Both the position numbers and the translations under genes were made by a program. Below, piece by piece: positions 24,110-43,752 of a stretch of 43,767 nt of DNA (positions are counted from its first letter, which is position 1; the number at the start of each line of letters is the position of its first letter). The notes below the pieces were generated by a model. That model ran no database searches. It saw nothing but the letters and a program-made list of their open reading frames with translations, and was not told where the DNA came from. Source of the stretch: Bacteroidales bacterium (GTDB lineage: Bacteria; Bacteroidota; Bacteroidia; Bacteroidales; UBA932); contig JABUTT010000067.1 of the NCBI GenBank assembly GCA_021443515.1, forward strand, positions 1 through 43,767, in the 5' to 3' direction.

Positions 24110-26176
24110 TTATTTCAATCCACGTGCTTTAAGAAGGGCGTCAGGATTAGGGTCTGAGCCACGGAAATTATGATAAAGTATCATAGGTTCCTCTGAACTT
24201 CCCTTTTCGAGAATGTTCTTGCGGAATGACTGTGCAGACTCCTGGTCGAAGATACCTTTCTGCTTGAACACTTCGAAGGCGTCCTTGTCGAGAACTTCTG
24301 CCCAGAGATAAGAGTAGTAACCTGCACTGTAACCATTGTTGAAAATATGGTTGAAGTAGGTTGAACGATAGCGAGGTATTATTTCGCAAATGAGACCCGC
24401 CTCGGTCATTGCATTTGCTTCAAAAGCCTCAACAAAGGCCTTAGCCTCTTCTGCGCTCACATTTTCGTACTTTGGAGCCTCAGAGATTTCGTGCCACTTC
24501 ATATCAAGGATGGACGCGGCAGTGAGTTCTGTGGTTGCAAAACCCTGGAAGAAGTTTGAAGAAGCCTTGATTTTCTCAACGAGTTCGTCAGGAATTACCT
24601 CGCCTGTCTCATAGTGGAAAGCGTAAGTTGAAAGAACCTCTTTCTGGAAAGCCCAGTTTTCATTGAACTGAGAAGGGAGTTCCACAAAGTCACGCTTTAC
24701 TGAAGTGCCGGCATCGCTGCGGTAGGTAGTCTTCGTAAGAAGGCCATGAAGGGCGTGGCCGAACTCGTGGAACATGGTCGAAACCTCATCGATTGTAAGA
24801 AGCGACGGCTTGGTAGCAGTAGGTTTTGTGAAATTGCCTACATTCACAATCACAGGACGGAGACCTTCATAGCCGCAAGCCTGTGCAAATTCAGTCATCC
24901 ACGCGCCACCACGCTTCGTTGCACGAGGATAGTAATCGGTGAGAATGATACCCAGGAGGCTACCGTCAGAGTCCACAACCTTGAAAGCCTCAACCTCAGG
25001 ATAGTATTTAGGAGCATTCTCCACAGGTTCAAAAGAGATGCCGTAGAGTTTGCTTGCTGTGGCAAATACGCCATTGCGCACATTCTCCATCTTGAAATAT
25101 GGCTTGGTGTCGTCTTCAGAAAGGGCATAATCTCTTTGACGGATTTTCTCGGCGTAGTAGAAAAGATCCCAAGGCTGAATTTTCTCGGAAGAAAGTTCCT
25201 GCATCTTTGCAATTTCCTCCTTTGCAACTTTCACTGCAGGCTTCATTATGCTCTCAAGGAAGGTGTCAACTGCCTCAGGAGTTCCTGCCATAGTGTTTGT
25301 GAGTATCATCTGGGCAGGTGTTTCAAAGCCGAGAAGATGAGCCTTCTCAACTCTGAGAGCCATTATCTCGAGGATGTTGCGATTGTTGTCGAACTCGTCT
25401 CCGTTGCAACGATTGCTGTAAGCCCTAAACATCTTCTCCCTAAGGTCACGATTGTCAGCAAAAGTCATAAAGGCAGTGTAAGAAGCATTTGTAAGGTGGA
25501 AGTGATATTTTCCGTCCTCTCCCTTAGCTCCTTCGAGAGCCGCCTCAGGCAGACCTGCTATTTCTTCAGGCTCGCTGACCACAAGGTCAAAAGCATTGTT
25601 GGCTGAAAGAATGTTGTCGCCAAACTTCTGCTGGAGTTCGCTAAGGCGTGCATTTATCTCCTTCATCCTTTCCTTAGCCTCGCCCTCGAGACCTACGCCG
25701 CCCATAATGAAGCCTCTGTAGGAATCTTTCACTATCATCTGCTGCTCACGAGTAAGTCCTTCCATATTGTTATAAACAGCCTCAACTCTTTTGAAAAGAG
25801 CCTCGTTGGTGGAAATCTCGCTGGAATGGATTGACACAAGACCCATAGCCTCAATCACGATGTCCTTGAGTGTTGGGGTTGCATCAGACTCTGAAAGATT
25901 GAAGAGAACCATAGCCGTCTTATTGAGAAGCAGACCAGATTTATCGAGAGCCAAAAGGGTATTTTCGAAAGTCGGAGCTTCAGGGTTTGAAATAATAGCC
26001 TCAATCTCCTGTTTGTTCTGCTTGATACCCTCCTTGATTGCAGGAAGATAGTGGGCTTCCTTGATTTTCTCGAAAGGAGGTATTCCATAAGGGGTGTCCC
26101 ATTCCTCAAAGAACGGATTGGTGGAACAAGATACTAAAGAAGCAAGCGCTGCTGCCATAATGATGATTTTTTTCAT
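24110..26176 (-). CDS. dcp: M3A metallopeptidase (peptidyl-dipeptidase Dcp-like), lipoprotein
   Basis: NPFF...TPYGIPPF, KRGGAW, FHEFGHALH, DFVELPSQFNE, YSAGYYSYLWAEVLD; lipobox LVSC. Confidence 0.9.
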   Translation of the reverse strand: MKKIIIMAAALASLVSCSTNPFFEEWDTPYGIPPFEKIKEAHYLPAIKEGIKQNKQEIEAIISNPEAPTFENTLLALDKSGLLLNKTAMVLFNLSESDATPTLKDIVIEAMGLVSIHSSEISTNEALFKRVEAVYNNMEGLTREQQMIVKDSYRGFIMGGVGLEGEAKERMKEINARLSELQQKFGDNILSANNAFDLVVSEPEEIAGLPEAALEGAKGEDGKYHFHLTNASYTAFMTFADNRDLREKMFRAYSNRCNGDEFDNNRNILEIMALRVEKAHLLGFETPAQMILTNTMAGTPEAVDTFLESIMKPAVKVAKEEIAKMQELSSEKIQPWDLFYYAEKIRQRDYALSEDDTKPYFKMENVRNGVFATASKLYGISFEPVENAPKYYPEVEAFKVVDSDGSLLGIILTDYYPRATKRGGAWMTEFAQACGYEGLRPVIVNVGNFTKPTATKPSLLTIDEVSTMFHEFGHALHGLLTKTTYRSDAGTSVKRDFVELPSQFNENWAFQKEVLSTYAFHYETGEVIPDELVEKIKASSNFFQGFATTELTAASILDMKWHEISEAPKYENVSAEEAKAFVEAFEANAMTEAGLICEIIPRYRSTYFNHIFNNGYSAGYYSYLWAEVLDKDAFEVFKQKGIFDQESAQSFRKNILEKGSSEEPMILYHNFRGSDPNPDALLKARGLK

Positions 26177-27191: not shown

Positions 27192-27223
27192 TTTGACAAG
27201 GGCCCACCGCATATATAACTTTG
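27192..27223 (+). promoter_or_regulatory. Bacteroidota sigma70 promoter (-33/-7)
   Basis: TTTG 27192-27195, 20-nt spacer, TAACTTTG 27216-27223. Confidence 0.75.
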
Positions 27224-27244
27224 CATTGCAAACAAACTAAAACT

Positions 27245-27847
27245 ATGATTGTTATGACAACGATTGCATACAACAGAATGACAAAGGCGTTTTTCGAAAG
27301 AACGGGCGCTGTTACTATAAACCTAACCAAATTACTAACAAGACGTTCCCGTCTCGAGAAGGAACTTGCACAGATACACGCAGGTGCGAAGGTGATTATC
27401 GAATTCGGAGGAGACAACTGTCGCTTCGACTGGAAGAACATCGCCAGGAATGTCAACGGTATCCACCTCCCCAAAACCTCCATCGAGGAATTTCACTCAA
27501 CCTACAAGAAAGTGATTGACGTGGTAAAAGAGAAAGGAGCCGTGCCTGTCCTTCTCGGCCTTGCGCCTATCGACAGCGAGAAGTATTTCAGCTTCATCAA
27601 GGACGCAAAGCGCAGAGAGCAGATTACAAGTTGGTTGGGCGGCAACTACCTTTACCTTGCGAACATTCACGAAAAGTATGTTCAGGAGGTTAAGCGCATT
27701 GCCAAGCAGGAGGAAGCAGAGTATGTAGATGTGGCGAGCATCTTCCGCACAAGCGCAGACTTTGACAAGTACCTCGAGAAAGATGGCATTTCCCTGAATA
27801 AGGCCGGATACCTCAGGGTTCAAGGTCTTGTTCAAGACATAATGTAA
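27245..27847 (+). CDS. SGNH/GDSL-fold protein with degenerate active site
   Basis: IIEFGGDNCRFDW, HLPKT, PIDSEKYF, WLGG, DGISLN resemble the GDSL-2 fold; no GDS block; ATG after an A-rich tract downstream of the promoter. Confidence 0.75.
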   Translation: MIVMTTIAYNRMTKAFFERTGAVTINLTKLLTRRSRLEKELAQIHAGAKVIIEFGGDNCRFDWKNIARNVNGIHLPKTSIEEFHSTYKKVIDVVKEKGAVPVLLGLAPIDSEKYFSFIKDAKRREQITSWLGGNYLYLANIHEKYVQEVKRIAKQEEAEYVDVASIFRTSADFDKYLEKDGISLNKAGYLRVQGLVQDIM

Positions 27848-27930: not shown

Positions 27931-29619
27931 TTATTTCACATAAACACCTACGTAGAAAGCATTGGTTGCCTGAGGAGCTTCTTTGTAAGAACCCTTATGA
28001 CAAACAATCTTGATGTCATCTCCGGCTGCAATTTCAAGCGTTCCAAACATTTTAGCAGGACCACCCCAACCATAAGTACAGCCATAGACATAAACTGCAC
28101 CTGTTTCGTCAACCAAGTCAAAGTTACCATAAGTGGTAAGATCCCATTTATGACCGCTTGGTGAACCGTCAGTAACTGTACCTGATACGCGATACCAAGT
28201 TTCAGTATCGTCTGCAAGAGCATTGAATGCGGCAGCAGTGATATCTGTAACCTTCTTGTGAGAAACAACGGTTACGCTCACCATCTGAGGATCTCCCTTG
28301 TAAGAACCCTTGACACCCTGAACTGTTACGATATCGCCTTCAGAAATTCCAAGAGTATCGAATTTTCCTTTTGCTCCTTCACCATCAAGGACACCATATA
28401 CATATACTGTGTCAGTATGGTCAACAATGTAGATGTTACCAGCGGTTGGATTGGCAACCTTGCAGATATAACCGGTGAGGCGATACTGGACAGCGTTATC
28501 ATCCGGAGCAGCGTTGATTTCAGCAGCAGTCTTGTCTTCAACTGCACCTTCCTGCTCGATTGTAATCACACCTGTAGAAGTGAATTCACCGAGAGAAGCC
28601 TCAATATTTACTTTTGCAGAGCGTCCGGCCTTGTCATTTGCATCGCAAGAGAAGTAGATGCTATCCTTGTCAAAACCTACATAGTGAATCCAAGATTCTT
28701 CAGGAAGAGCTTTGAATGTATCTACGTTAATAACTGCTGCAGCTGCGACTGCACCACCATCCTTACCAATGGTAATAGTAGGAGTCTTGATTGTGAGAAC
28801 TTCTGGAGCAGGGTCCTTTGCAGGTACGAGATATGGAAGAACGCCGCCTGTCTGAGGAGTGTTATATGCTCCGTATGAGCTGTAGCCTGTAGAGTACTGC
28901 ATCCACTTGCCCTGACCGCTTGTGATTTCGAAAGCATAGTCATCAACCTGCTTAACAGTCCAAACAAAAGCATTTGAAGTCTTGCTTGTCTGATAGAAGT
29001 TGTTGTACTTGCCTGCGCTATCCATATAGAGATATCCACCTGCTGAATCCTTGATATAGAAACCGCCTGTAGTTGCCTCAAATGTGAAGATATTTGCCTC
29101 AGTGCTTGTAAGACCTTTCTCAAGATCACCCTTTGCATCGTCAACGTAGATGTAGCCATAGCTGCTACTGTCATCGATTGTAAGACCAAGAGGTTTTGCT
29201 ACCTTCCAAACACCGTCAGCCTGCGCCATAATCCAATAATTACCGGCCTCAAATTCAGGATATGGTGAAGGAGTAGCAAGTTTCTTGAAAAGAACGAACT
29301 GAGCGTTTGTACCACAGATAATCTGGATATTTACTGTGAGTTCCTTAGAAACCGCATCAGGATAAGAGAATGTCACGGTAGTTTCACCAGCCTTTCCGCT
29401 CGTTGGAGTAACAGTAAGGCCTTCAGGGATTGATGACGCAACAACTTCCCAATCCTCGGTTGCTGTAACCTTGATAGAGCCTTCAGTTGCATCTTGTGCC
29501 AAGATAACTTGAGTTTTGTCAACCTTAATATTGTCAAAACTTCTGGCAATCTGCTTTGGAGTACAAGCCACGAGAAGAGCGGCTGCAGCAAAGCCTGTCA
29601 ATATTTTTGTAATTTTCAT
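27931..29619 (-). CDS. Surface lipoprotein with BACON/Ig-like domains and two tandem OB-fold-like repeats
   Basis: Lipobox LVAC; BACON-like VTATEDW...TPTSG and SWI...CDAN...RSA segments; two 97-aa C-terminal repeats YRxxG...GNxxxVDxT..VYVYG...GD...KGSYK..PQ. Confidence 0.75.
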   Translation of the reverse strand: MKITKILTGFAAAALLVACTPKQIARSFDNIKVDKTQVILAQDATEGSIKVTATEDWEVVASSIPEGLTVTPTSGKAGETTVTFSYPDAVSKELTVNIQIICGTNAQFVLFKKLATPSPYPEFEAGNYWIMAQADGVWKVAKPLGLTIDDSSSYGYIYVDDAKGDLEKGLTSTEANIFTFEATTGGFYIKDSAGGYLYMDSAGKYNNFYQTSKTSNAFVWTVKQVDDYAFEITSGQGKWMQYSTGYSSYGAYNTPQTGGVLPYLVPAKDPAPEVLTIKTPTITIGKDGGAVAAAAVINVDTFKALPEESWIHYVGFDKDSIYFSCDANDKAGRSAKVNIEASLGEFTSTGVITIEQEGAVEDKTAAEINAAPDDNAVQYRLTGYICKVANPTAGNIYIVDHTDTVYVYGVLDGEGAKGKFDTLGISEGDIVTVQGVKGSYKGDPQMVSVTVVSHKKVTDITAAAFNALADDTETWYRVSGTVTDGSPSGHKWDLTTYGNFDLVDETGAVYVYGCTYGWGGPAKMFGTLEIAAGDDIKIVCHKGSYKEAPQATNAFYVGVYVK

Positions 29620-29637
29620 AATTATCTTCTTCTAAGA

Positions 29638-32600
29638 TTAGTTGAACATATACTTGATACCTACAGAAGCATACCAGCACTGTCCGATAGTGTGGCTGAG
29701 CACGAATGTCTCAGTGTTTGCACTGATTGCCTTAGGAGTAGAGAATACAGGATAACCTTCTTGGTCTGTTCCTTCATATTTGAGGATACGAGCCTCTGAA
29801 CCAATCTCAGGGTTGAGGTATTTGCTGACACCCCACTTAGAGTTGAAGAGGTTGAGGACGTTCTTAACGTTTACGCTAATCTGGATAGTGTTGACTGAGT
29901 TGCCGGCTTTGATTCTGAAATCCTTGCTGTAGGCGAAGTCAAGTCTGTGAGTCCAAGGAGAATATACGCTGTAAGCTTCAGCATACTGTCCCTGGTGTTT
30001 GCTGAGATAGCTGTCCTTGTGAACATAGTCCATGAAACGCTTCTGGCTGTCTTCGTCAATGAAACGGAACTCGCCGTTAGCGACCTGCTTGTCGGTAGGA
30101 ATATAGATTGCATCGTAAGCATAACCGTCACCGTTCATATCGTTGGTAGTCATATAAGAGTAGTTGTAACCACCTCTCCAAGCCTCATAGATGAGACTGA
30201 AACGGTTGTAAGCCTTGTCTGTGAATGTAAGAGATGAGATTACACGGTCAGGAGTTACATACTGTGAGTTGTGGAGAGGAATGTTGTTAGGACCCTCAGA
30301 AGTTGCCACGTATGTGAATGCTGACTCAGCGGCGCTACCAGGCATACCGGTAATTTCCTTGTTTGCAGTGTGGGTGTAGGCAGCCATGATGTCGAGACCC
30401 TGAACAGGGCTGATCTTCATTGTTACGTTTGCAGTCCAACCATAACCCTGGTTAGTGTTCTCAAGCACGAATGCTGCAGTACCTGTACGGAAGTTTGAAG
30501 GATAGATAGAACGGTTGTCAGCACCATTGAACTTAGCGAAACCGGCTACTGGAAGAATACTCCAGTCAGAGATGCTTACTGCGTTGAGAGTCTTGTTGTA
30601 GATACCCTCGGCAGTGATACTGAATGGGAATGAAGTTGGGAACTGGTAGTCGATTGCGAGAGAAGTCTTCCAAACCTGAGGCATCTTGAAGTTAGGGTCA
30701 ACTGCAGAGATAGTAGCAGGTTTTGTACCCTTTGCAGGATCGTATGCTGAAGGGAAGCCCATTGAAACGAGTTTTGCGCGAAGGTCTGAGATAGAAGTAA
30801 GCATATCACCCTTGAACTCGTTGAGGATAGATGCCATGTCAGGATATTTAGCCTTAACCTCATCAGGAAGGTTAGCATATTTCACGCTTGGACCAAGCTG
30901 TGCCTGATACTGAACGGTACCTGCGTTGGTTGGCATATTGGTGAAGAACACGAGTGGAAGACGACCTGAGAAGAGACCTGTACCACCACGGAGTTTGAGG
31001 CTCTTGTTACCAAGGATATCCCAAGTGAAACCGATACGAGGAGAGAAGGTTACAGAAGCGTTTGGCCATTTGCCAGTGTCGATGTGACGACCTGTTACGC
31101 AACCTTTACCACCGTCGATAAATTCGCCTGCTGCATTCTTGCAGTCACCTGTGTGATAAGGAATAGCGAGGATGGCGTTATTGGTCCTAAGGTCTGCGTT
31201 ATTGAAGAAGAGACCGTCGATACGGAGGCCGTAAGTAAGTTTGAATCTCTCGTGAATAGTCCACTCATCCTGAGCGTAAATGCTTGGACGATAGAAACGA
31301 ACACGTGCTGCAGGAGGGTTTGAACCACCGTCATAGCCGTATGTGAGGCAGACAACCTCAGGAGTTTCACCTGCGAAGAAGTCGTCCAAAGACTTGTAAC
31401 GATAGTAACCTGTACCATTACGGAGGTAAGCGTTGTCAGCCATCTGGTATTCGAAGCTGATACCTCCGGTTACCTTATGGTTGTCGCCGTACCATACGAG
31501 GTCATCCTTTACATTTACGACATCGTTGTGGACACCATTATAATATGTAAAGAGCTCGTAACCGAGAGCCATATAGTTCTGACCTGAACCATCAAGGATG
31601 TCGATGAATGGGAACTCCTTAGAGTTTGTACCACGAACGTCATCGAGTTTAGAGTAAGTGAAGAGGAGCTGGTTTGAAAGGTTGCTTGTAAGGCGGCTGT
31701 TGAGGTCGACAGATACAGAGTTTGCAACATTCTGCTGTGAGTACATAGAATTTGCAAAAGACATTGAATACTGTGAAGTACGAGCGCCAGAAGCACGAGT
31801 ACCACCGTCCATTGAAGTTGCGTTAGGACCAACCCACTTGTTGTTTACAGTGTTGTTGTAACGAACTGTGAGGTGATGGTTATCGGTAATGTTCCAGTCA
31901 ATCTTGGCAAGAATTTTTCTGCAGTTGACATTTGCAGGGAAACTTGTCCAAGAACCTGTGTCATAACCGTATTTGCTCTTAACGAACTCAGAAACCTTTG
32001 CAAGGTCAGCGTTGGTTGTACGAGAAATATAGTTGTTTGCATCAGCTTTGCCATCCTCTGAACCTCTCCAGCGTACAGGAACGTTAGGAGACTGCTCAAA
32101 CTCAGCATTCACATAGAAGAAGAGTTTGTTCTTGAGGATAGGACCGCCGAGAGAGAAACCAAAAGTAGTTGTACGGTCTTTGTCGCGAGCTCCGTTGATT
32201 TGTGTACCATCAACTGTATCACCTCTCATGTTCTCGTTCTGATGAGTAACGAAAGCTGTAGCCCTGAAGGTGTTGGTACCTGACTTGGTAACAGCGTTCA
32301 CACCACCACCGATGAAGTTGCTCTGACGAACATCGTAAGGAGAAATTACAACCTGCATTTCCTCGAGAGCGTCGATAGAGATAGGACTACCGCCACCAGG
32401 GAGACCGTCGCTAAGACCAAAGTTGTTGTTGAAGTTCGCACCATCGACTGTGAAGTTACCAAGACGACCGTCAGTACCGGCGAAACTCATACCGTTACCT
32501 CCGTAAGGAGAAAGTCTTGTAATGTCGGTGATTGAGCGGTCAACTGTAGGCACGCTTGCGATTTCCTTGCCGGAAATTGTGGTAGCGGCACCGGTTCTCT

Positions 32601-32997
32601 CAGTTGCAAACTTGGAAGATGCTGTAGAAATCACCTTTGCTTCAGCGAGAAGCTCAGAGTCATCAGCAAGGGTCGCGTTAAGACCAAAAGACTCACCAAG
32701 TTCAAGAGTTACATCGGTGTAAGTTACAGTAGCGTAACCAAGACAACTAATCTCCACCTTGTAAGGACCGCCGACACGCATACCGTTGATAGCATACTGT
32801 CCGTTTGCGTTGGTGACAGAATAGTAAGTAGTACCAGAAGGAGTGTGAACCGCAACGACGGTTGCTCCTACAACAGAAACTCCGCTTCCATCGGCTACAC
32901 GGCCATTGAGAGCGGAGGTGGTTACCTGTGCTTGTGCAGAGATAACACAAAGCATTGCTGCGAAAGACAGCAACAGAACTTTGATTGTTTTGTTCAT
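29638..32997 (-). CDS. TonB-dependent receptor (Oar-like, N-terminal carboxypeptidase-regulatory-like domain)
   Basis: Signal peptide; GATVVAVHTPSGT; plug motif SPYDVRQSNFIGGGVNAVTKSGTN; YAQDEW, SPRIGFTWD; C-terminal beta signal GIKYMFN; start taken at MNKTIK. Confidence 0.92.
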   Translation of the reverse strand: MNKTIKVLLLSFAAMLCVISAQAQVTTSALNGRVADGSGVSVVGATVVAVHTPSGTTYYSVTNANGQYAINGMRVGGPYKVEISCLGYATVTYTDVTLELGESFGLNATLADDSELLAEAKVISTASSKFATERTGAATTISGKEIASVPTVDRSITDITRLSPYGGNGMSFAGTDGRLGNFTVDGANFNNNFGLSDGLPGGGSPISIDALEEMQVVISPYDVRQSNFIGGGVNAVTKSGTNTFRATAFVTHQNENMRGDTVDGTQINGARDKDRTTTFGFSLGGPILKNKLFFYVNAEFEQSPNVPVRWRGSEDGKADANNYISRTTNADLAKVSEFVKSKYGYDTGSWTSFPANVNCRKILAKIDWNITDNHHLTVRYNNTVNNKWVGPNATSMDGGTRASGARTSQYSMSFANSMYSQQNVANSVSVDLNSRLTSNLSNQLLFTYSKLDDVRGTNSKEFPFIDILDGSGQNYMALGYELFTYYNGVHNDVVNVKDDLVWYGDNHKVTGGISFEYQMADNAYLRNGTGYYRYKSLDDFFAGETPEVVCLTYGYDGGSNPPAARVRFYRPSIYAQDEWTIHERFKLTYGLRIDGLFFNNADLRTNNAILAIPYHTGDCKNAAGEFIDGGKGCVTGRHIDTGKWPNASVTFSPRIGFTWDILGNKSLKLRGGTGLFSGRLPLVFFTNMPTNAGTVQYQAQLGPSVKYANLPDEVKAKYPDMASILNEFKGDMLTSISDLRAKLVSMGFPSAYDPAKGTKPATISAVDPNFKMPQVWKTSLAIDYQFPTSFPFSITAEGIYNKTLNAVSISDWSILPVAGFAKFNGADNRSIYPSNFRTGTAAFVLENTNQGYGWTANVTMKISPVQGLDIMAAYTHTANKEITGMPGSAAESAFTYVATSEGPNNIPLHNSQYVTPDRVISSLTFTDKAYNRFSLIYEAWRGGYNYSYMTTNDMNGDGYAYDAIYIPTDKQVANGEFRFIDEDSQKRFMDYVHKDSYLSKHQGQYAEAYSVYSPWTHRLDFAYSKDFRIKAGNSVNTIQISVNVKNVLNLFNSKWGVSKYLNPEIGSEARILKYEGTDQEGYPVFSTPKAISANTETFVLSHTIGQCWYASVGIKYMFN

Positions 32998-33047
32998 AAA
33001 GGTTTTATTGAAAAGAATTGATTGATTCATTCCCTACTAAACTGACG

Positions 33048-35691: not shown

Positions 35692-35767
35692 GCGGAAATA
35701 GCTCAGTTGGTAGAGCACAACCTTGCCAAGGTTGGGGTCGCGAGTCCGAGTCTCGTTTTCCGCTCCA
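35692..35767 (+). tRNA. tRNA-Gly (GCC)
   Basis: Acceptor GCGGAAA/TTTCCGC; D arm GCTC-AGTTGGTA-GAGC; anticodon arm CAACC-TTGCCAA-GGTTG; CCA encoded. Confidence 0.96.
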
Positions 35768-35822
35768 AGACGGTCGCTAAATGGCGGCCGTTTTATCCTA
35801 AGAAAAGAGTTTAAGACTCCCT

Positions 35823-35909
35823 GGTGAGATGGGTGAGTGGCTTAAACCAGCAGTTTGCTAAACTGCCGTACGGGTAACCGTACCAGGAGTTCGAATCTCC
35901 TTCTCACCG
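35823..35909 (+). tRNA. tRNA-Ser (GCT)
   Basis: Acceptor GGTGAGA/TCTCACC; anticodon arm GCAGT-TTGCTAA-ACTGC; long variable arm GTACGG-GTAA-CCGTAC; TTCGAAT; discriminator G; no encoded CCA. Confidence 0.96.
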
Positions 35910-35910
35910 C

Positions 35911-35951
35911 AAAAAGTGACCTACAGAAATGTAAGTCACTTTTTCTTTTTT
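35911..35951. terminator. Bidirectional terminator shared by the tRNA operon and the convergent nuclease-TBDT operon
   Basis: AAAAAGTGAC-CTACA-GAAA-TGTAA-GTCACTTTTT. Confidence 0.85.
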
Positions 35952-35987: not shown

Positions 35988-36866
35988 CTACTGCCTTTGA
36001 ACCAACTCCACCGAAGCAATTATAATCACCACTCCGATGAGTTTCGCTATTGTAAACGACTCCATTCCCATTGAAAAGGCAACCAAGGCGCTCACGACAG
36101 GTATTATTGTATTGAATATTGCCGTTTTCGTCATTCCTATGGCCCCCACTCCATTCACAAAGAAGGCGAAGGCAGCGCAAGAACACAGCACTGCAAGACA
36201 AAGCAGAGGAACGATGACCTCCGCATTGAGCAGCAATTTCATACCCGAAAGTCCCATTGGCTCTATGAAAATGCAAGGGAAAAGGAATATTGAACCAAAG
36301 ACAAACTGATAAGTGGTAATTGTCCAGGCGTTATATTTAGACGAGTTCTTCTGCACGATGGTATTGTAGCCAACGGATGCTATAAGACAGCCAAAAAGCA
36401 GAGCAAAACCCCACCAATACTTGCTCGAAACCTCTCCCTTGCCAAGGTTCATTAAGACAATGCCCACTATCGACAATACCGCTCCGGCAAAACCTTTCCA
36501 AGTGATTTTGGTCTTAAAAAATACAAGGGCAGCTATCATCACGAACACAGGCACCAGAGAAGAAAACAGGGCGCAAAGAGTAGGCGACCCTGTGGCTTTC
36601 AGGGAAAATGTCTCACAGATATAATATAGGAACGGATGAAGGAGGGCGCAAAGAAGGAAAGAAGGGATATCTTTTCTGTCTATCCTCTGCAACACTCCGA
36701 AACTCTTGCAAAGAACGAGCATCACGAGGGCCGCAATGAACATTCTTGAGAAAGTGAAGACAAAGACCGGTATTTCAAGATTTATGAGGACTTTCGTCCA
36801 AATGAACGATAGTCCCCAAAAAATCTCGGCTATAATTATCAGTATGTATGGTAGCGCCTTTTTCAC
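35988..36866 (-). CDS. DMT/EamA family transporter
   Basis: IFWGLSFIWTK, about 10 TM segments in two EamA halves; GTG start overlaps the upstream stop (GTGA). Confidence 0.9.
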   Translation of the reverse strand: MKKALPYILIIIAEIFWGLSFIWTKVLINLEIPVFVFTFSRMFIAALVMLVLCKSFGVLQRIDRKDIPSFLLCALLHPFLYYICETFSLKATGSPTLCALFSSLVPVFVMIAALVFFKTKITWKGFAGAVLSIVGIVLMNLGKGEVSSKYWWGFALLFGCLIASVGYNTIVQKNSSKYNAWTITTYQFVFGSIFLFPCIFIEPMGLSGMKLLLNAEVIVPLLCLAVLCSCAAFAFFVNGVGAIGMTKTAIFNTIIPVVSALVAFSMGMESFTIAKLIGVVIIIASVELVQRQ

Positions 36867-37444
36867 AGAGCCTCAAGCCACGAAACAAAACAACGGAAAT
36901 CGGTGTGAGAATGTGAAAATTCCATAAATGACTGGAGATTCTCGGCACCTTTTCCCATAGTATCAGAAATGTACTTCAAAACAGCAACGGGAGTATTGTG
37001 TTTCTGCGCAATCTGACAGATGGCACATCCTTCCATATCGAACATAACATTGTGGCCATATTTCGCAAACAGAGCCTCTGCTTTGTCGCCGGTCATAAAT
37101 GCATCTCCTGAAAGGAGAAGACAGTCATCCTTGCCTATAAGTTTAAACTCCTGAGTCAGCTCGGGAACAATCTCGGCAGGACAGTCTGCATCGTGGTAGC
37201 GTGCGGCCGACGGGCAAAGAAAGTCTCCCTGATGGTAGGAAGAACTTGCCCCCGCATAACCCACGAGAACCACAAGGTCATATTTTTCCTTGGAGAGTTC
37301 AACCGCAGTGCATGCTGCAGCAAATGCCTTGCCCACATCGCAAGTCACAGCCTTGTAAGAATGTTTGAGCTTATCAAAGGTGGAAAGGGCCGCGTTAAAA
37401 TTAACAAGTTCCCTCTCCATTGGCGCTATTACAAGTATTTTCAT
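36863..37444 (-). CDS. Short nucleosidase of the MTA/SAH nucleosidase / PNP_UDP_1 superfamily
   Basis: APMERE, DVGK, VGYAG, HDAD, SGDAF, DMEG, KYISD; no signal peptide. Confidence 0.85.
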   Translation of the reverse strand: MKILVIAPMERELVNFNAALSTFDKLKHSYKAVTCDVGKAFAAACTAVELSKEKYDLVVLVGYAGASSSYHQGDFLCPSAARYHDADCPAEIVPELTQEFKLIGKDDCLLLSGDAFMTGDKAEALFAKYGHNVMFDMEGCAICQIAQKHNTPVAVLKYISDTMGKGAENLQSFMEFSHSHTDFRCFVSWLEAL

Positions 37445-37462
37445 AGTAGGTTGTTCTGAAAG

Positions 37463-38569
37463 TTACTGAATCTTGATGTCGTCAATATTGTTCACTACCA
37501 TCTGGATATTGCCCTGATAGAGGCAGAGGATACCCGTAACGGATATCTTCTTCGTGCCTGCAAGGACGGCAGGGTCAATCTCAGTATCAGAGAACTTGCA
37601 GAAACCGCTTGTACGAATCTGAACGCACTTGCCTGAAGGAGTGTGGAAGTATTGACTCACAGAGCCTGCGGCCTTTTCAATTGTAGGATAGGTTCCATCT
37701 CCCTTGCGGTCGCCCACTGTACCATAGTTGTAATCCTTGGCATTGCCGATATAGACATTATCCCAAATACCCGAATAAAGATACTCGGTCATCTTTGCCT
37801 TGGACATAGCCCAAGTGGTGATACCTGTGCCTGAACCCGAAATGAAAATACGGTTTGAAGAAGCCTTCTTGTCTTTGTTTGAATCAAGATAAAGAAGAAC
37901 AAAGGCTTCATTATGGTCACCGTACTTAGGGTCATCCCAGCCGTAAGTAAGATCGGTTATTGTTACGAGGCGTCCTACATTCTTATTGGTCTTCTGGGTG
38001 TCGGATGAGCCGGGAAGTTCAGATTCTTTAAGGACAACAGGGGTAACAGGGTTTCCTTTTTCTCCTGTAAACACATGGGTATTGATTATGATTGGAGACT
38101 CAAGATATGATGTCTCATAACTGCCTGAAGGGTCTGAGAAACCAATTTGAATCATACCGTTGCCGTTTGAACCCAAACCATATTGTCCGACACTGAGGTC
38201 TTGACAGAGGACATAAAGTTTCTGGCCCGGAAGATAATCGTTATAGAGGGCGTTCTTACCTATCTTGACCTCAATACCGCCGGTCTCATCTTGAATATAA
38301 AGACTCTTGTAGAAGTTGCCAGGCTGGTCTGTTGTCGAAACCACACCGCTCACTACAATATAATCCTTAACCCTATAATATTCCGATGCTTTGAAAGTAC
38401 CGTTTGTGTACATTTGAGCAACATCTGCAATAGTGTGAGTCGCTGTCATCTCTACCGGCTTGGCAGGAGACGGATTCTCGTAATCAACCGTGAATACCGG
38501 CTGGAATTCCTCGCAGGAAACAAAAAGGGTAATGGCTGCAAGAGCCGCAAAAATTTTATTTGTTTTCAT
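37463..38569 (-). CDS. DUF5689-like OB-fold surface lipoprotein
   Basis: Lipobox FVSC followed by acidic EE; ATHTIA, SGVVSTTDQPGNFYKSLYIQDETGGI, RTSGFCKFS, VTGILCLY. Confidence 0.8.
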   Translation of the reverse strand: MKTNKIFAALAAITLFVSCEEFQPVFTVDYENPSPAKPVEMTATHTIADVAQMYTNGTFKASEYYRVKDYIVVSGVVSTTDQPGNFYKSLYIQDETGGIEVKIGKNALYNDYLPGQKLYVLCQDLSVGQYGLGSNGNGMIQIGFSDPSGSYETSYLESPIIINTHVFTGEKGNPVTPVVLKESELPGSSDTQKTNKNVGRLVTITDLTYGWDDPKYGDHNEAFVLLYLDSNKDKKASSNRIFISGSGTGITTWAMSKAKMTEYLYSGIWDNVYIGNAKDYNYGTVGDRKGDGTYPTIEKAAGSVSQYFHTPSGKCVQIRTSGFCKFSDTEIDPAVLAGTKKISVTGILCLYQGNIQMVVNNIDDIKIQ

Positions 38570-38573
38570 ACGC

Positions 38574-41519
38574 TTAGAATCTGAAATAGATGTTCAACAT
38601 ATAGTTAATGCCCTGCATATAGAAATACTTAGGGTCGAAACGATAATAACGGTCCTTGCCCTGAGAAGAGATGAGACGAGTCTGTTCGTAGCCTCCTGTC
38701 TTGACATTCTTGTTGTTGAGGAGGTTCTTTCCTTCGAGAGAGAAACCGATATTATACTTGCGGTTGATATACCAACTCTTGCCCACGCTGAGATTGAGGA
38801 GGAAGGCAGGATCAAATTTTTCCTGACTTGTCATATAGATAATTTCGGCAGGAGTTTCAACGCCGTCGCCACCTCCACAAGCAAAGTGTGTACGATAGAG
38901 AGGGTTCATATCGAGATAAGAGTTTGTAAAGAACTGTCCGTTAAGTTCGAAGAACCAGTATGAAGAAGTTCTGTAGTTGAGAGCGAGGGCGGTTGCAAGT
39001 TGAGGAGTTGAAGGCACATAGTGCTTCTGATAACCCTGAATGATAGGATTTCCTTCTGCATCTTCATCATAAACAGGAACGCCGTCAACATAGCCTGCAA
39101 TCTTGAAAATAGGGTGTTTAGACCAGTAAGGCACATCTTCGTTACGAATGATTGAAGAGTTGTTGTCCACGGTCTGCACCATGTGAGGAGTGCTTGTGTA
39201 GATGTACTCGCCGAAACTTACAACTGCGCTGAGGCTAAGTCCCTGCACTCCGAGAGGAACCTTCACACCTGCTTCAAGACCGAGGTGACGCTGGTCGATT
39301 CCTGTCATCGCAAAGTTGGTGAAAGACTGCTGTGAATCATCGTAGAAACTCATCACATCGGTCTGATTGTAAATCTTCGTGAAGAAACCTGTGAGGCGAA
39401 CGCTGAAGCCGTTGTTGTTGTACTGGTAGTTGACGTCGGCGGACACCGTCTTCTTGTCCTTGAGACCTGCAACGAGAGAGTTTCTTGTGCGGGCAGAAAT
39501 AAAGGACTGATTGAATGTAGGGGCATCGGCAAAGAAACCTGCATTGGCGCTGATACGGTGACCTCCGATGAAGTCGTATGCGATACCTACCTTTGCAGAA
39601 CCTACAAGGAAGGTGCTTGTTGCCGATTTACCCTTTGAAGATATCACATTGCCCTCAGCATCGTATGTAGTGAGGACTTTGCCTTGGTATATAATCTCCT
39701 TACCTTCGTCATCGAGACCTGCAAAGAGACCCTTTCTCACAAGACCTTCCCTCCAGAATGCATCCACTCCGATAGAGCCGGCAGCGTATGCAGTGAGGAA
39801 ATTCTTCTTATAAGTGAGGTTGAACCAAGCCTTTCCGCGACGAATCTGAGCATAATAGTCATAACCATATTTGCCGTTCTTTGTGATCTTCTCGGCAGAA
39901 CCGTTCTTGAGGAAGTAGTCGAGATCATTCTGGATAAGCGCTTCGTTGGAAGCAAAATCACGCTCGGCAAACGAGTCTATATTAAGATAGTATGTACCTC
40001 CGAGAAGGTCATTCATAATTTTGTAGTTCTCGGTGCGGTTGATGCGGCCGTTGAGACCGGCGTTGAGTGTGAGATAATCGAGTGGAGACCACTTGACATT
40101 AAGAGCTATGTTCAAGTCGTTCTGGTCAACGCGACGCTCTTCAAGAGCATATTTGCTTCGGCCGTCAGGATTGTTGTAGTTGACATTGTAGAGGCGATCC
40201 CAGTTGAGGTGCTGGTAGTTGTTGTATTCCTTGCCCCTGTGAGTCCAGGCATATTGCGACCACGCAGCCTTTTCCTCATTTGTCCTGTTGTAGTCCTCGT
40301 CCTCGATGTAGGCGTAAGAAGGCAGGTTGCGGTAGTAATCAGGTCTTGGGTCTGAAGCGTCATACCAATCAAGCGCAGTATAACCATTGTAACCTGTTCT
40401 GTAAAGAACTGTAGCCTCTGCCTTCAAAGCCGAAGAAGGATTGAAAGCATATTTAAGGATGATGACCGGCTCACAGGTGATACGCACCCTCGAGTTACGC
40501 ACCTTGCCATTCTGGTAACCCCAGTTGGAGTTGTACATATTGTCGCCCATAAGGTTATAAACCTCCTGAGTGGAAGCATTCTGCGCACCTCTCTGTCCCG
40601 GAGTGGCAAATGCCACAATCGAAAATCTGTGAGCATCGGCGAACTTCTTGCTCAAACCTGCATAGAAGGCAAAAGACCTGTAGTAAACACCCTTTACCCA
40701 ATCATTTCCACCAAGGCGGGCGGAAACATTAAATGCGAAAGACCATCCGTTGTCGAGTTGGCCTGATGCATAGTTTGCCATAAGGCGAAGACGGTAGAGG
40801 GCAGAGTTTGTCAAAGCGGAGAATCTCCAGCCCGGACGCACATTCTCAGGCATGGCGTTGATGTTGGTCACACCATTGAAACCGCCTACTCCCACATCCG
40901 AAGTACTCAGACCGAGGGTGGTGTCCTTAGACCTCATAGCCTCGTTAAGACCGCTCCAGAGAGAGAAAGGAGAATAACCTGTGATTGCGTCGTTGATTGG
41001 AACGCCTGCAAGATAAACATCCTGACTTTCTGAATCGTATCCACGGTTTTTGAACCTTATTGCACTGAAACCATAGCCGGCAACGCTTGTAAAGACGTCA
41101 TTGCTACCGAAAAGGATAGTAGGAGCGTCAGTATAACCGCTGTCATCAAGGTCAAACTCTGCAAAGTTCGAGTCATCGAGGTCGTTGTTGCTTTGTTGAG
41201 GAGTAAGGGTTACGAACATAAGGTTTCTTACATTTCCCTTCTCAATCAACACGTTGATCTGAATAGGAGTGTATTCCTCTGCATCCACAGAAAGAGAATA
41301 CGGGCCGTCCGGAAGATCCTTGAAATAGAATGAACCGTCCTCGGCTGTGATTGCCGTTGTGAGAGTAATTCCATCCTTCTGAAGTGCAACTTTTGCATTA
41401 GAAACAGGAACCTTGTCACCACGAGACACCACAGAGGCCTTGATTCCTCCTGTAGGAGACTGCGCCCAAGCCATAAAGGACAATGCAAGCGCCAAAATCA
41501 TTGAAATAGTCTTTTTCAT
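38574..41519 (-). CDS. TonB-dependent receptor (non-SusC type)
   Basis: Signal peptide; carboxypeptidase-regulatory-like N-domain; plug RFKNRGYDS...WSGLN; YNSNWGYQNGK; C-terminal YFRF. Confidence 0.88.
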   Translation of the reverse strand: MKKTISMILALALSFMAWAQSPTGGIKASVVSRGDKVPVSNAKVALQKDGITLTTAITAEDGSFYFKDLPDGPYSLSVDAEEYTPIQINVLIEKGNVRNLMFVTLTPQQSNNDLDDSNFAEFDLDDSGYTDAPTILFGSNDVFTSVAGYGFSAIRFKNRGYDSESQDVYLAGVPINDAITGYSPFSLWSGLNEAMRSKDTTLGLSTSDVGVGGFNGVTNINAMPENVRPGWRFSALTNSALYRLRLMANYASGQLDNGWSFAFNVSARLGGNDWVKGVYYRSFAFYAGLSKKFADAHRFSIVAFATPGQRGAQNASTQEVYNLMGDNMYNSNWGYQNGKVRNSRVRITCEPVIILKYAFNPSSALKAEATVLYRTGYNGYTALDWYDASDPRPDYYRNLPSYAYIEDEDYNRTNEEKAAWSQYAWTHRGKEYNNYQHLNWDRLYNVNYNNPDGRSKYALEERRVDQNDLNIALNVKWSPLDYLTLNAGLNGRINRTENYKIMNDLLGGTYYLNIDSFAERDFASNEALIQNDLDYFLKNGSAEKITKNGKYGYDYYAQIRRGKAWFNLTYKKNFLTAYAAGSIGVDAFWREGLVRKGLFAGLDDEGKEIIYQGKVLTTYDAEGNVISSKGKSATSTFLVGSAKVGIAYDFIGGHRISANAGFFADAPTFNQSFISARTRNSLVAGLKDKKTVSADVNYQYNNNGFSVRLTGFFTKIYNQTDVMSFYDDSQQSFTNFAMTGIDQRHLGLEAGVKVPLGVQGLSLSAVVSFGEYIYTSTPHMVQTVDNNSSIIRNEDVPYWSKHPIFKIAGYVDGVPVYDEDAEGNPIIQGYQKHYVPSTPQLATALALNYRTSSYWFFELNGQFFTNSYLDMNPLYRTHFACGGGDGVETPAEIIYMTSQEKFDPAFLLNLSVGKSWYINRKYNIGFSLEGKNLLNNKNVKTGGYEQTRLISSQGKDRYYRFDPKYFYMQGINYMLNIYFRF

Positions 41520-42592
41520 TATTTGCCTATTACGATGTAAGTTGGATAATGGTCAGAATAACCGCCGATGAAAGAGCCGTTGGAGAAAGTACGGAAAGGA
41601 GTGTCCTTGTACTGTCCGCTCTGGTTGGTCATAAACGGTTTTTTGAATATACGGCCATAATAGCCTTTCTTGTTGATTTTCTGAATACGGAAAGTACCAT
41701 CCTCCGGAGTGGCGAGAGCCTTGTTGCAAAGGATGATGTCATAAATGTTCCAGGTGCCCTGATATGCGAGAGAGCCATAGCCGTCGGCAAGCATCTTGGT
41801 GAATGGAGAGAAGAAATCGCCTTCCTTCACATCTTCAATTTTTGCCTTGCCGTGCATATAGGTAACCATACTCTCATCCGTAGGGTTGTCGTTCATATCT
41901 CCCATGGCAACTATTTTGATTCCCGGGAACTCTTTCTCGAGTTCTGCCGCCCTCTGGTACATGATTTCAGCTCCTCTCGGACGAAGATCCTGGCCTTTTC
42001 CACCAATTCTTGAAGGGAGGTGGGCAACGAAGAAGGCAAACATCTGACCCTCGATAGTACCGCGAACCATAAGGATGTCACGGGTCTTGAAGCGACTCTT
42101 TTCCTCGTCTGTCCAAGCAGAAAAATCTATCGAAGAAGGCTCGAAAGTGAAAGGGATGGACTCGCTTGCAAGAAGTTTGAACTGACTTGGACGATAGAGA
42201 AGAGCCACATCCACGCCACGACTGTCAGGACCGTCATAATGAACAATCTGATAGTTGGCTGCGGCTATTTCAGGCTGGCTTACAAGGTCTTCTATCACGA
42301 GGCGGTTCTCAATCTCTGATATACCGAGAATCGTGTGAAAAACCTTGTTGTCATTCTTCATCTCCGCAATGACGTGAGCCATGTTTGCCTGCTTCTTGTC
42401 GTACTTTGCCTGTGTCCACTGGTTCTTGCCCTCAGGAAGGAATTCGTAGTCATTCTTTCCTTCTTCGTGGTAGATGTCGAAAAGGTTTTCAAGATTGTAG
42501 AAGCCTATCACATACTTCTGCTGCTTCTGGGCAAGGCAATTAATGCTCACAAAAAGCATTACCGCTGTAATCTGGAATAGTTTTTTCATCAT
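41519..42592 (-). CDS. Endonuclease/exonuclease/phosphatase (EEP) family secreted protein
   Basis: FYNLENLFD, GISEIEN, DSRGVDVALLY, HLPSR, MGDMND, GYSDHYP; signal peptide; start at MMKKLF. Confidence 0.92.
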   Translation of the reverse strand: MMKKLFQITAVMLFVSINCLAQKQQKYVIGFYNLENLFDIYHEEGKNDYEFLPEGKNQWTQAKYDKKQANMAHVIAEMKNDNKVFHTILGISEIENRLVIEDLVSQPEIAAANYQIVHYDGPDSRGVDVALLYRPSQFKLLASESIPFTFEPSSIDFSAWTDEEKSRFKTRDILMVRGTIEGQMFAFFVAHLPSRIGGKGQDLRPRGAEIMYQRAAELEKEFPGIKIVAMGDMNDNPTDESMVTYMHGKAKIEDVKEGDFFSPFTKMLADGYGSLAYQGTWNIYDIILCNKALATPEDGTFRIQKINKKGYYGRIFKKPFMTNQSGQYKDTPFRTFSNGSFIGGYSDHYPTYIVIGK

Positions 42593-42597
42593 TATTC

Positions 42598-43752
42598 TTA
42601 GTTTTTCGTCCACCAGGCATCTATCTTGGACTCAACCTGTGCGGATAAAGTTTCTCCAATTTTGTCGGACAGATTCACGAAGAAATCCATTCCGAGTTTA
42701 CTCTCAAGTTCATCTATCGTCATATACTGATCGGACATCGTACTTGAGTAATTGTAATGGTCGTAATAAATGCCGAGGGCGATATAACCTCCGGTAGTGT
42801 TTCCCACCGTACCCGGCTTGTAACCGAGAAGAGCCTTGAAGTAGCCCACAGGAACGGTCACGGCCTTATTATTGTTGTCGTAAGCATAAGACTTTGAACC
42901 CTTGATGTTAGCTCCCGTAACCACATAAAGCGTATCCAATGAACCTGCCCAGGTACGGACCTTGCTTTCAAGGGAGGCCCACTCATTCTGATTCAGGGCA
43001 GCCTTCTGCGGAGTCATATTGGTAAAATAGAACGTCTGCTCATTCGCTCCGCTTGCAAGGCGATCTGCCGAAGGAAGCTGGTGGCCTCGGTCATATCCTC
43101 CTCTATATGCAGATGATAAGCACTGTTGCCTGTCTCTTGGCAACTTAGGGTCATAACCCCAGGCATCCGTACGACTTCCATTACCTATAAGTCCCTTATT
43201 CAGCGGATAGGCAACCCAAACGGAAATAAGGGCATCGGGGTCATAGTAGAAAGAATAGTTACGGACCGTCTTTGAACCAAGATTCATATCGTGGAAGAAG
43301 AAATATCTTCCGTCATTATCCGGCATCGCAGGCAGTTCGAGCCATTTTCTCGGCTCGTCTGGAATGAGTTCCGAGATAATCGGAACCCTTGCACTCTGAG
43401 TAAATACCGCTTCGGTCTTCTTGGCTCCGGAAGTCAGAGTTATTATGCAGATCCTGGTATTTTCTCCACCATTTGCCTGCCATGTCATAACGACGGCGGC
43501 AGACTTGTCTCCCGAAGACTTATCTATCGTGAGCCAAGGTTGCACTCCTTCCCCAAAATCGAGATCAAGCGACCATTCTCCTGATGCCTTAACGGTTAAA
43601 AACTGGCTGCCGGAAATATAGGTTGCAGTAGGAGAAGGAAGGCTCAGTTCAAATTCCTCTTCAGGGATGACAGGAGCGGGCTTAGTGCAGGAAAGCGCTG
43701 TGAGGACAGCCATCCCCACAGCGATAATCCCAACTAAGTGTCTTGATTGCAT
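42598..43752 (-). CDS. DNA/RNA non-specific endonuclease (NucA/EndoG-type) lipoprotein with BACON domain
   Basis: Lipobox ALSC; BACON-like VKASGEW...PWL...R segment; WVAYPL, YDRGHQLPSAD, TFYFTNMTPQ, LNQNEWASLE active-site motifs intact. Confidence 0.93.
   Translation of the reverse strand: MQSRHLVGIIAVGMAVLTALSCTKPAPVIPEEEFELSLPSPTATYISGSQFLTVKASGEWSLDLDFGEGVQPWLTIDKSSGDKSAAVVMTWQANGGENTRICIITLTSGAKKTEAVFTQSARVPIISELIPDEPRKWLELPAMPDNDGRYFFFHDMNLGSKTVRNYSFYYDPDALISVWVAYPLNKGLIGNGSRTDAWGYDPKLPRDRQQCLSSAYRGGYDRGHQLPSADRLASGANEQTFYFTNMTPQKAALNQNEWASLESKVRTWAGSLDTLYVVTGANIKGSKSYAYDNNNKAVTVPVGYFKALLGYKPGTVGNTTGGYIALGIYYDHYNYSSTMSDQYMTIDELESKLGMDFFVNLSDKIGETLSAQVESKIDAWWTKN

What the first reader, a model, noticed from the sequence alone, without database searches (positions are those of the whole stretch)
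35988..43752. Complete PUL-like nucleic-acid utilisation operon (cut, import, trim, salvage)
Seen: six co-directional genes with gaps of 5, -1, 4, 18 and -4 nt that end at one terminator. In order they encode a lipoprotein DRGH endonuclease on a BACON stalk, a signal-peptide EEP nuclease/phosphatase, a TonB-dependent receptor, an OB-fold DUF5689-like lipoprotein, a cytoplasmic nucleosidase and an inner-membrane DMT transporter. Established: Bacteroidota PULs follow the same logic of surface endo-enzyme, binding lipoprotein, TBDT, periplasmic exo-enzyme and inner-membrane permease, and OB folds commonly bind single-stranded nucleic acid. Inference: this is the DNA/RNA equivalent, with an OB-fold lipoprotein replacing SusD. 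From memory and unverified, B. thetaiotaomicron BT3558-BT3563 has a similar nuclease/EEP/TBDT/DUF5689 core linked to extracellular DNA breakdown. The core may therefore be known; the attached nucleosidase + DMT module that would complete the pathway is the potentially new part.
Basis: partly seen in the sequence, partly recalled or inferred. Interest (0 to 1): 0.88.

Follow-up and report, generated by a model that had tools for sequence, protein, structure and literature searches.

The report
Known DNA-uptake locus with passenger tail
Four of these six genes match the already published 'ddb' system, which likely cuts outside DNA and imports the pieces; the two extra genes are missing from almost all related clusters and are likely a housekeeping enzyme and an unrelated transporter, although this bacterium seems unable to build its own nucleotides and so would depend on such scavenging.

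Summary
The six genes, gaps and terminator are real. The first four are a Bt-type ddbABCD DNA-utilisation locus (Sharan 2025, PMC12478041), which already makes the PUL analogy; this scan also found such loci before on other DNA. The proposed new part mostly fails. None of 89 related loci has an EamA hit, and one has a nucleosidase-family gene 8 kb away; in 32 of 41 close loci a peptidase M3 follows DdbD instead. The nucleosidase is MTA/SAH-nucleosidase-like (Pfs) by sequence and fold, and its relatives often follow luxS. NupG, purine nucleoside phosphorylase, Hpt, Upp and Udk lie elsewhere in the genome. New here: 0 of 15 de novo purine/pyrimidine genes were found in this 93.6% complete genome, so the locus likely feeds a nucleotide auxotroph. 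The operon is cut by the contig end and is probably not complete. Verdict: new member of a known kind, interest 0.3.

The parts
42598..43752 (-). DdbA-like lipoprotein: BACON domain + DNA/RNA non-specific endonuclease (DRGH motif); lipobox Cys22 read by eye
   Evidence: Pfam PF01223 E 1e-39, PF13004; motifs DRGH 221, TNMTPQ 244, NQNEWASLE 254; found in 38 of 46 related loci
41519..42592 (-). DdbB-like EEP nuclease with an N-terminal signal-like stretch (predicted periplasmic)
   Evidence: Pfam PF19580 E 1e-87; GDMND 231, SDHYP 346; 42 of 46 related loci
38574..41519 (-). DdbC-like TonB-dependent outer-membrane transporter, Bt type
   Evidence: PF13620; 43-44% identical over aligned positions to two Bt2-like transporters (Bt2 likeness read by eye against Dataset S4); family in 143 of 301 genomes of the order
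37463..38569 (-). DdbD-like DUF5689 lipoprotein with OB folds; Cys19 invariant in 11 aligned relatives
   Evidence: PF18942 E 2e-37; alignment; model pLDDT 76.8, best Foldseek hits p204 HIN-dsDNA and archaeal RPA, E 2e-5 to 8e-4, low TM-scores
36863..37444 (-). Short, divergent MTA/SAH nucleosidase-like enzyme (Pfs/MtnN); lineage-specific tail gene
   Evidence: All 33 PDB sequence hits are MTA/SAH or aminodeoxyfutalosine nucleosidases; model pLDDT 92.5, all listed fold hits MTAN-family, TM 0.73-0.83; luxS directly upstream of 18 of 52 relatives
35988..36866 (-). EamA/DMT inner-membrane transporter, about 10 hydrophobic segments; lineage-specific tail gene, substrate unknown
   Evidence: PF00892 twice; hydropathy; genus homologues at 30-41% lie next to pyrC in 54 of 100 rows
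35911..35944 (.). Bidirectional terminator-like hairpin between the EamA gene and tRNA-Ser

Best explanation
The first four genes are a Bt-type ddb locus that likely cuts extracellular DNA at the cell surface, imports fragments through the TonB-dependent transporter with its OB-fold lipoprotein and trims them in the periplasm, while the last two genes are likely passengers, a Pfs-type nucleosidase and an EamA transporter, picked up by one small lineage. Steps: (1) the BACON-stalked endonuclease cuts DNA outside (shown for DdbA of B. thetaiotaomicron, inferred here); (2) DdbD binds and DdbC imports oligonucleotides (inferred in the paper and here); (3) the EEP enzyme degrades them in the periplasm (nuclease activity shown for DdbB, location predicted); (4) nucleosides would cross the inner membrane through the NupG-family permease encoded elsewhere and be salvaged by PNP, Hpt, Upp and Udk (genes found, flux inferred); (5) the tail nucleosidase most likely clears SAH, MTA and 5'-deoxyadenosine, the housekeeping job of Pfs. 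The genome appears to lack de novo purine and pyrimidine synthesis (my odds about 0.7), so here the locus would supply nucleotides rather than carbon, nitrogen or phosphorus.
For: Same four gene types as ddbABCD; same order as two Bt2-like loci, L225 and L226. Core conserved at 35-73% in 46 loci, tail found in 0 of 46; peptidase M3 within 400 nt of DdbD in 32 of 41 loci with room. In 89 loci a nucleosidase profile hit 1 (8 kb away) and an EamA profile 0; none of 44 hydrophobic ORFs scanned was EamA. Reciprocal tests: no ddb gene in 29 EamA loci, 29 genus nucleosidase loci (flanks 1.5 kb) or 52 metagenome nucleosidase loci. Pfs identity; it is the only hit of the MTAN profile in the genome and no SAH hydrolase motif was found (motif recalled). 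Salvage genes elsewhere. De novo genes: 0 of 15 queries with an orthologue.
Against: No Bacteroidetes -7 promoter motif on the minus strand from 36000 to the contig end (motif recalled), so the tail is probably co-transcribed. Matching contig lengths place nucleosidase and EamA together in two sister lineages (5 of 5 and 1 of 1 lengths) and the best DdbD homologue on one of those lengths (3339), so the join is older than this strain. EamA homologues lie beside pyrC in 54 of 100 rows, a nucleotide-related hint. The enzyme is about 35 residues shorter than solved MTANs, scores below every NCBIfam cut-off and has no luxS in this genome, so its specificity may have shifted. On auxotrophy: the assembly has 251 contigs; no apt was found either, leaving no visible route to AMP, which points to missing sequence or an unseen route; the 8 genomes with the closest DdbC all have purC and pyrF.
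Confidence: 0.7

Rival explanations
1. One reading: all six genes are one pathway. The tail enzyme is a Pfs-derived general nucleosidase and the EamA imports nucleosides or bases, both recruited because this lineage cannot make nucleotides.
For: Tight gaps, one terminator, no internal promoter motif; tail kept in two sister lineages by contig-length match; EamA homologues beside pyrC in 54 of 100 rows; apparent auxotrophy; divergent, shortened enzyme without luxS.
Against: EamA in 0 and nucleosidase in 1 of 89 loci; enzyme keeps the MTAN fold and motifs; NupG, PNP and a uridine-phosphorylase-like gene already exist; other EamA homologues have unrelated neighbours; the DdbC of other genomes lacking purC and pyrF was not shown to carry such a tail (EamA contexts of several of them hold no ddb gene).
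Confidence: 0.12
2. The tail is a small module of its own: Pfs splits SAM by-products and the EamA exports the leftover sugars (S-ribosylhomocysteine, methylthioribose, 5-deoxyribose), which this genome cannot recycle without LuxS. It only borrows the ddb promoter.
For: The two genes overlap by 4 nt and travel together in two sister lineages; no luxS found; E. coli excretes these sugars after Pfs action (PMC10986504 passages).
Against: No EamA beside 52 metagenome or 29 genus nucleosidase relatives; the EamA's usual neighbour is pyrC. No substrate data.
Confidence: 0.1
3. The core mainly clears extracellular DNA around cells (biofilm role as for BT3563) or takes up DNA for transformation (as the Riemerella DdbCD homologues), not for nutrition.
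For: BT3560-3563 is needed for bile-dependent biofilm (PMC8851478 passages); RA0C_RS04915/04920 are essential for transformation (PMC8459023 passages); DNA was a poor sole C, N or P source in B. thetaiotaomicron.
Against: Two co-encoded nucleases fit degradation; Sharan et al. report inconsistent DNA uptake results in gut Bacteroidales; apparent auxotrophy favours supply. Competence genes were not searched here.
Confidence: 0.08

Closest known systems
ddbABCDEF DNA-utilisation locus of Bacteroides thetaiotaomicron, Bt type, nearest subtype Bt2 (Sharan et al. 2025, PMC12478041)
   Same: Lipoprotein nuclease, EEP nuclease, TonB-dependent transporter and DUF5689 lipoprotein in one run; PUL-like logic and DdbD as the SusD stand-in are already proposed there, with a p202-like fold match.
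   Different: Transporter only 43-44% identical to Bt2-like proteins (paper's subtype cut is 50%); no DdbE/DdbF downstream; Pfs-like and EamA genes follow DdbD; host appears to lack de novo nucleotide synthesis.
BT3560-BT3563 operon (Bechon et al. 2022, PMC8851478)
   Same: TonB-dependent receptor with nuclease lipoproteins; a variant with a BACON protein is described.
   Different: Phenotype studied is biofilm; no BT3563-like gene downstream of DdbD in this window.
Riemerella anatipestifer RA0C_RS04915/04920 (PMC8459023)
   Same: Carboxypeptidase-regulatory-domain outer-membrane protein next to a DUF5689 protein.
   Different: Needed for natural transformation; not compared by sequence here.
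MTA/SAH nucleosidase (Pfs/MtnN, EC 3.2.2.9)
   Same: Fold, GK, GDAF, xME and SD motifs, an N-terminal Glu12, relatives behind luxS.
   Different: 193 aa, 17-26% identical to solved members, below NCBIfam cut-offs, Lys157 where solved members have Arg, no luxS in this genome.

Membership tests
ddb DNA-utilisation locus (Bt type) | Anchored by a DdbC-type TonB-dependent transporter | tested here: met
   43-44% to L225/L226 transporters, whose termini match Bt2 DdbC by eye; by-eye count 34 of 60 identical to Bt2 DdbC in one ungapped stretch. No computed alignment to the paper's own sequences.
ddb DNA-utilisation locus (Bt type) | DUF5689 lipoprotein (DdbD) directly after the transporter, OB/HIN-like fold | tested here: met
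ddb DNA-utilisation locus (Bt type) | Secreted nucleases: lipoprotein nuclease (DdbA) and SPI EEP nuclease (DdbB) | tested here: met
   Pfam and motifs; signal types read by eye, SignalP not available
ddb DNA-utilisation locus (Bt type) | DdbE and DdbF (present in Bt1) | tested here: inconclusive
   Absent downstream of DdbD; the contig ends upstream, where 46 flanking ORFs of relatives form one BACON-type family; a homologue lies on contig C200, join not shown
ddb subtype Bt2 | >50% identity and >75% coverage to Bt2 DdbC | tested here: inconclusive
   Against Bt2-like stand-ins 43-44% at 91-92% coverage, below the cut; the reference sequence itself was not aligned
ddb DNA-utilisation locus (Bt type) | Locus required for DNA depletion | not testable with these tools
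   needs culture or heterologous assay
MTA/SAH nucleosidase (Pfs) | NP-I fold with MTAN as nearest structures | tested here: met
MTA/SAH nucleosidase (Pfs) | Catalytic Glu12 and Asp197, ribose-binding M173/E174 | tested here: met
   E12, M137, E138, S160, D161 invariant or nearly so in relatives. D161 and ME aligned to solved MTANs; E12 matched by position only; roles of 12 and 197 from PDB mutant titles, 173/174 recalled
MTA/SAH nucleosidase (Pfs) | Score above curated NCBIfam cut-off | tested here: not met
   TIGR01704 50.3 vs 73.8 bits; PRK05584 69.6 vs 169
MTA/SAH nucleosidase (Pfs) | Substrate specificity for MTA/SAH/5'-deoxyadenosine | not testable with these tools
   indirect only: luxS upstream in 18 of 52 relatives
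Classical PUL (SusC/SusD) | SusC/SusD pair with carbohydrate-active enzymes | tested here: not met
   No SusD or glycoside hydrolase family among the six proteins
Nucleoside permeases (NupC/NupG) | Tail transporter belongs to a nucleoside permease family | tested here: not met
   It is EamA only; a NupG-family gene is on C122; no NupC found

The most novel reading that the evidence does not exclude
A gut Bacteroidales lineage that has lost all de novo purine and pyrimidine synthesis lives on scavenged DNA and RNA, and has extended its ddb operon with a Pfs-derived nucleosidase of widened specificity and a pyrC-associated EamA transporter, giving the first single-operon route from outside DNA to cytoplasmic bases and naming downstream steps that the ddb paper left unidentified.
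Probability: 0.12. Interest if true: 0.65.

Novelty: new member of a known kind. Interest (0 to 1): 0.3.

Why it matters
The system is published, so the core adds range rather than concept: DdbC is in 106 of 131 good genomes of this genus. The useful new point is physiological. Sharan et al. found DNA a poor sole C, N or P source and left the purpose of ddb open. Here 23 of 131 genomes lack both purC and pyrF, and 22 of them keep DdbC. If such species are nucleotide auxotrophs fed by ddb, that gives the locus a testable purpose and a simple culture lead (add DNA or nucleosides) for a mostly MAG-only group. The enrichment itself is not significant (76 of 95 prototrophs also keep it; Fisher p 0.12, kin not independent).

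Tried and rejected
RNA evidence: 3 runs of one study, contigs only, short low-depth pieces over the locus, none listed bridging a gene junction by 31 letters on both sides (24 of 88 pieces shown); not shown to be transcripts, so not used. Joining contig C200 to the window end: no overlap of 15 nt or more; left open. Sigma-70 scan uninformative for this phylum. No solved structure related to the transporter by sequence. The pyrC neighbour was first suspected to be a purine or MTA deaminase; it is dihydroorotase. Auxotrophy-ddb enrichment not significant. Thymidine auxotrophy rejected: a ThyA motif is present (motif recalled). EamA profile sensitivity is limited (it found 1 of 3 other EamA genes of this genome), so a hydrophobic-ORF screen was added: 61 candidates, 17 dropped as antisense shadows of ddb genes, 44 scanned, none EamA, 17 without a family at 1e-5. 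No complex prediction was run, as the paper already models DdbC-DdbD. Literature searches that gave nothing on the tail or on auxotrophy in this genus.
Full report
Observation. The six minus-strand genes exist at the stated places with gaps of 5, -1, 4, 18 and -4 nt, taking the ATG at 42592 as the EEP start. Pfam gives BACON + Endonuclease_NS, Exo_endo_phos_3, CarboxypepD_reg, DUF5689, PNP_UDP_1 and EamA. A hairpin at about 35911-35944 is far more stable than shuffles on both strands (z -5.7 and -5.1) and is shared with the convergent tRNA-Ser. The window is a whole contig and ends 15 nt before the first gene, so 'complete' cannot be claimed. Directly upstream in relatives lies a BACON lipoprotein, often with OB-fold hits; a homologue is on contig C200 of this genome and runs off its end, but the join was not shown. 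The nearest named relatives include Candidatus Cryptobacteroides MAGs at 63-70% transporter identity, so the host likely belongs to that genus.

The core is known. Sharan et al. 2025 (PMC12478041; I read parts 1-4 of 5 of the text, which cover results, discussion and methods, plus Datasets S2 and S4; the SI appendix and Datasets S1, S3, S5 were not read and could show further locus layouts) describe ddbABCDEF of B. thetaiotaomicron. They show nuclease activity for DdbA, B and F, show that the locus is required for DNA depletion, model DdbC-DdbD, note a p202-like fold for DdbD and draw the PUL comparison. They state that downstream enzymes are unidentified and that DNA was a poor sole C, N or P source. 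Bechon 2022 (PMC8851478, passages) and the Riemerella paper (PMC8459023, passages) cover homologous genes. My DdbD model (pLDDT 76.8) matches p204 HIN-dsDNA and RPA best, with low TM-scores. Two order-level loci, L225 and L226, have transporter termini that match Bt2 DdbC by eye and the same gene order as the window; the window transporter is 44% and 43% identical to them and 49% to L224, under the paper's 50% subtype cut. So this is a Bt-type locus nearest Bt2, possibly its own subtype. The transporter family is in 143 of 301 genomes of the order and 106 of 131 good genomes of the genus. Earlier notes of this scan reached the same reading on other DNA.

The tail is not part of the conserved system. 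In 46 close loci the nuclease was found in 38, EEP in 42 and DUF5689 in 45, with misses at contig ends; nucleosidase and EamA were found in 0. In 32 of 41 loci with at least 1.6 kb downstream, a peptidase M3 starts within 400 nt of DdbD; in the window that gene lies 11 kb further on at 24110-26176, so the region was rearranged. Adding 43 loci (3 genus, 40 picked from the best order-wide hits) gave 89: a nucleosidase profile hit one gene 8 kb away, an EamA profile none. As that profile finds only 1 of 3 other EamA genes in this genome, I screened hydrophobic ORFs: 61 candidates, 17 dropped as antisense shadows, 44 scanned, none EamA, 17 without a family. Reciprocally, no ddb gene lay beside 29 EamA homologues or 29 genus nucleosidase homologues (1.5-kb flanks) or 52 metagenome nucleosidase relatives, many on short contigs.

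The nucleosidase looks like Pfs. All 33 PDB sequence hits and all listed fold hits are MTA/SAH-type nucleosidases (model pLDDT 92.5). E12, GK, GDAF, ME and SD are kept. luxS lies directly upstream in 18 of 52 relatives (cluster; 5 members checked by Pfam, all LuxS). It is the only MTAN-profile hit in the genome. Pfs cleaves SAH, MTA and 5'-deoxyadenosine for detoxification and adenine salvage (PMC10986504, passages); these are SAM by-products, not DNA breakdown products. Against a plain Pfs label: it is short, below NCBIfam cut-offs, only 24-38% identical to genus homologues, has just 5 non-self homologues in the word-indexed search, and luxS was not found in this genome.

No TAnnTTTG element (Bacteroidetes -7 motif, recalled) occurs on the minus strand between 36000 and the contig end, while it sits just ahead of six neighbouring genes or units, so the tail is probably on the ddb transcript. 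The 72% nucleosidase cluster and the 63% EamA cluster have the same five contig lengths (2002, 3339, 4117, 7634, 7635), a second pair shares 2782, and the best DdbD homologue (66%) is on a 3339-nt contig. This is inference from lengths, not from reading the contigs, but it implies the tail is kept in a narrow clade. EamA homologues lie within 1.2 kb of pyrC in 54 of 100 listed rows, 54 of 64 where that pyrC type is present; of 13 other contexts fetched, 11 had a called EamA ORF, with varied neighbours and no ddb gene. A pyrimidine-related substrate is therefore possible, but kin share synteny.

Likely auxotrophy. None of 15 de novo queries taken from relatives (purD, H, C twice, L, E, F, M, A, B; pyrB, C, D, E, F; names checked) has an orthologue here; the weak hits are FolD, a dihydroorotate-dehydrogenase-like protein at 27%, N-acetylornithine carbamoyltransferase and a lyase beside it that I read as ArgH by eye. 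Family searches for pyrF, purC and purH, which ring in 12-14 of 14 controls, also fail. Salvage genes are present: NupG-family permease, PNP, a uridine-phosphorylase-like gene, Hpt, Upp, Udk. In the genus, 23 of 131 genomes at least 90% complete lack both purC and pyrF; 22 keep DdbC, against 76 of 95 with both (p 0.12). Cautions: 93.6% complete, 251 contigs; pur/pyr genes cluster in relatives, so few missing contigs could hide many; apt was not found, leaving no visible route to AMP; the 8 genomes with the closest DdbC are prototrophs. I put auxotrophy at about 0.7. Searches for this point in print found nothing relevant in the listings, and searches for DUF5689 and ddbABCDEF listed only the papers above; most subscription journals are outside the library.

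Mechanism and verdict. Most likely the surface nuclease cuts DNA, DdbD and DdbC bind and import fragments, the EEP enzyme trims them, and NupG plus the scattered salvage enzymes finish the job, with the tail riding on the transcript (0.7). The six-gene single-pathway model keeps 0.12. It works like, and by the tested features belongs to, the ddb family: new member of a known kind, interest 0.3.

Noticed in passing
window 27931-33030 (minus strand): A second TonB-dependent transporter (OMP_b-brl_4, about 1120 aa, no detectable likeness to DdbC) followed by a 562-aa BACON lipoprotein whose C-terminal part resembles OB-fold clusters. In 6 of the 25 related loci with 10 kb upstream this transporter sits just upstream of the ddb run at 33-64% identity, so it is better linked to ddb than the tail is; a candidate second nucleic-acid importer.
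   Followed up: partly
G000 contig C200 (L220:166-1992): BACON lipoprotein homologous to the gene found directly upstream of the nuclease in relatives, running off the contig end; probably the missing first gene of this operon. Join not shown.
   Followed up: partly
whole genome G000: No de novo purine or pyrimidine genes, no purA/purB and no apt found; no visible route to AMP. Either missing contigs or an unseen adenine route.
   Followed up: partly
L043, L044, L236, L238, L240, L242, L245, L251: One family of 300-326-aa membrane proteins (32-94% identical, weak bile-acid-symporter hit for one member) lies a few kb upstream of the ddb genes in 8 of 89 loci and was not found in this genome; a possible ddb-linked inner-membrane transporter.
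   Followed up: partly
G000 contigs C156 and C222: Two further Endonuclease_NS-like genes, 28-30% identical to the DdbA-like catalytic domain.
   Followed up: no
L159, L185, L184: luxS plus this nucleosidase subfamily in low-GC contigs among short unannotated genes and an HD protein (L159, L185); in L184 the nucleosidase lies between a weak terminase-like ORF and a TET-associated glycosyltransferase. Possibly phage-borne.
   Followed up: no
L279:35-2146: PurD fused in one frame to FolD in a genus relative.
   Followed up: no
window 27221-27847 (plus strand): A 208-aa ORF without an NCBIfam match that has the deepest protein-gene cover in two RNA-library assemblies; contig depth cannot rank expression.
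   Followed up: no
window 35692-35910: tRNA-Gly and tRNA-Ser converge on the tail and share its terminator; the rearranged stretch between DdbD and peptidase M3 contains them.
   Followed up: no
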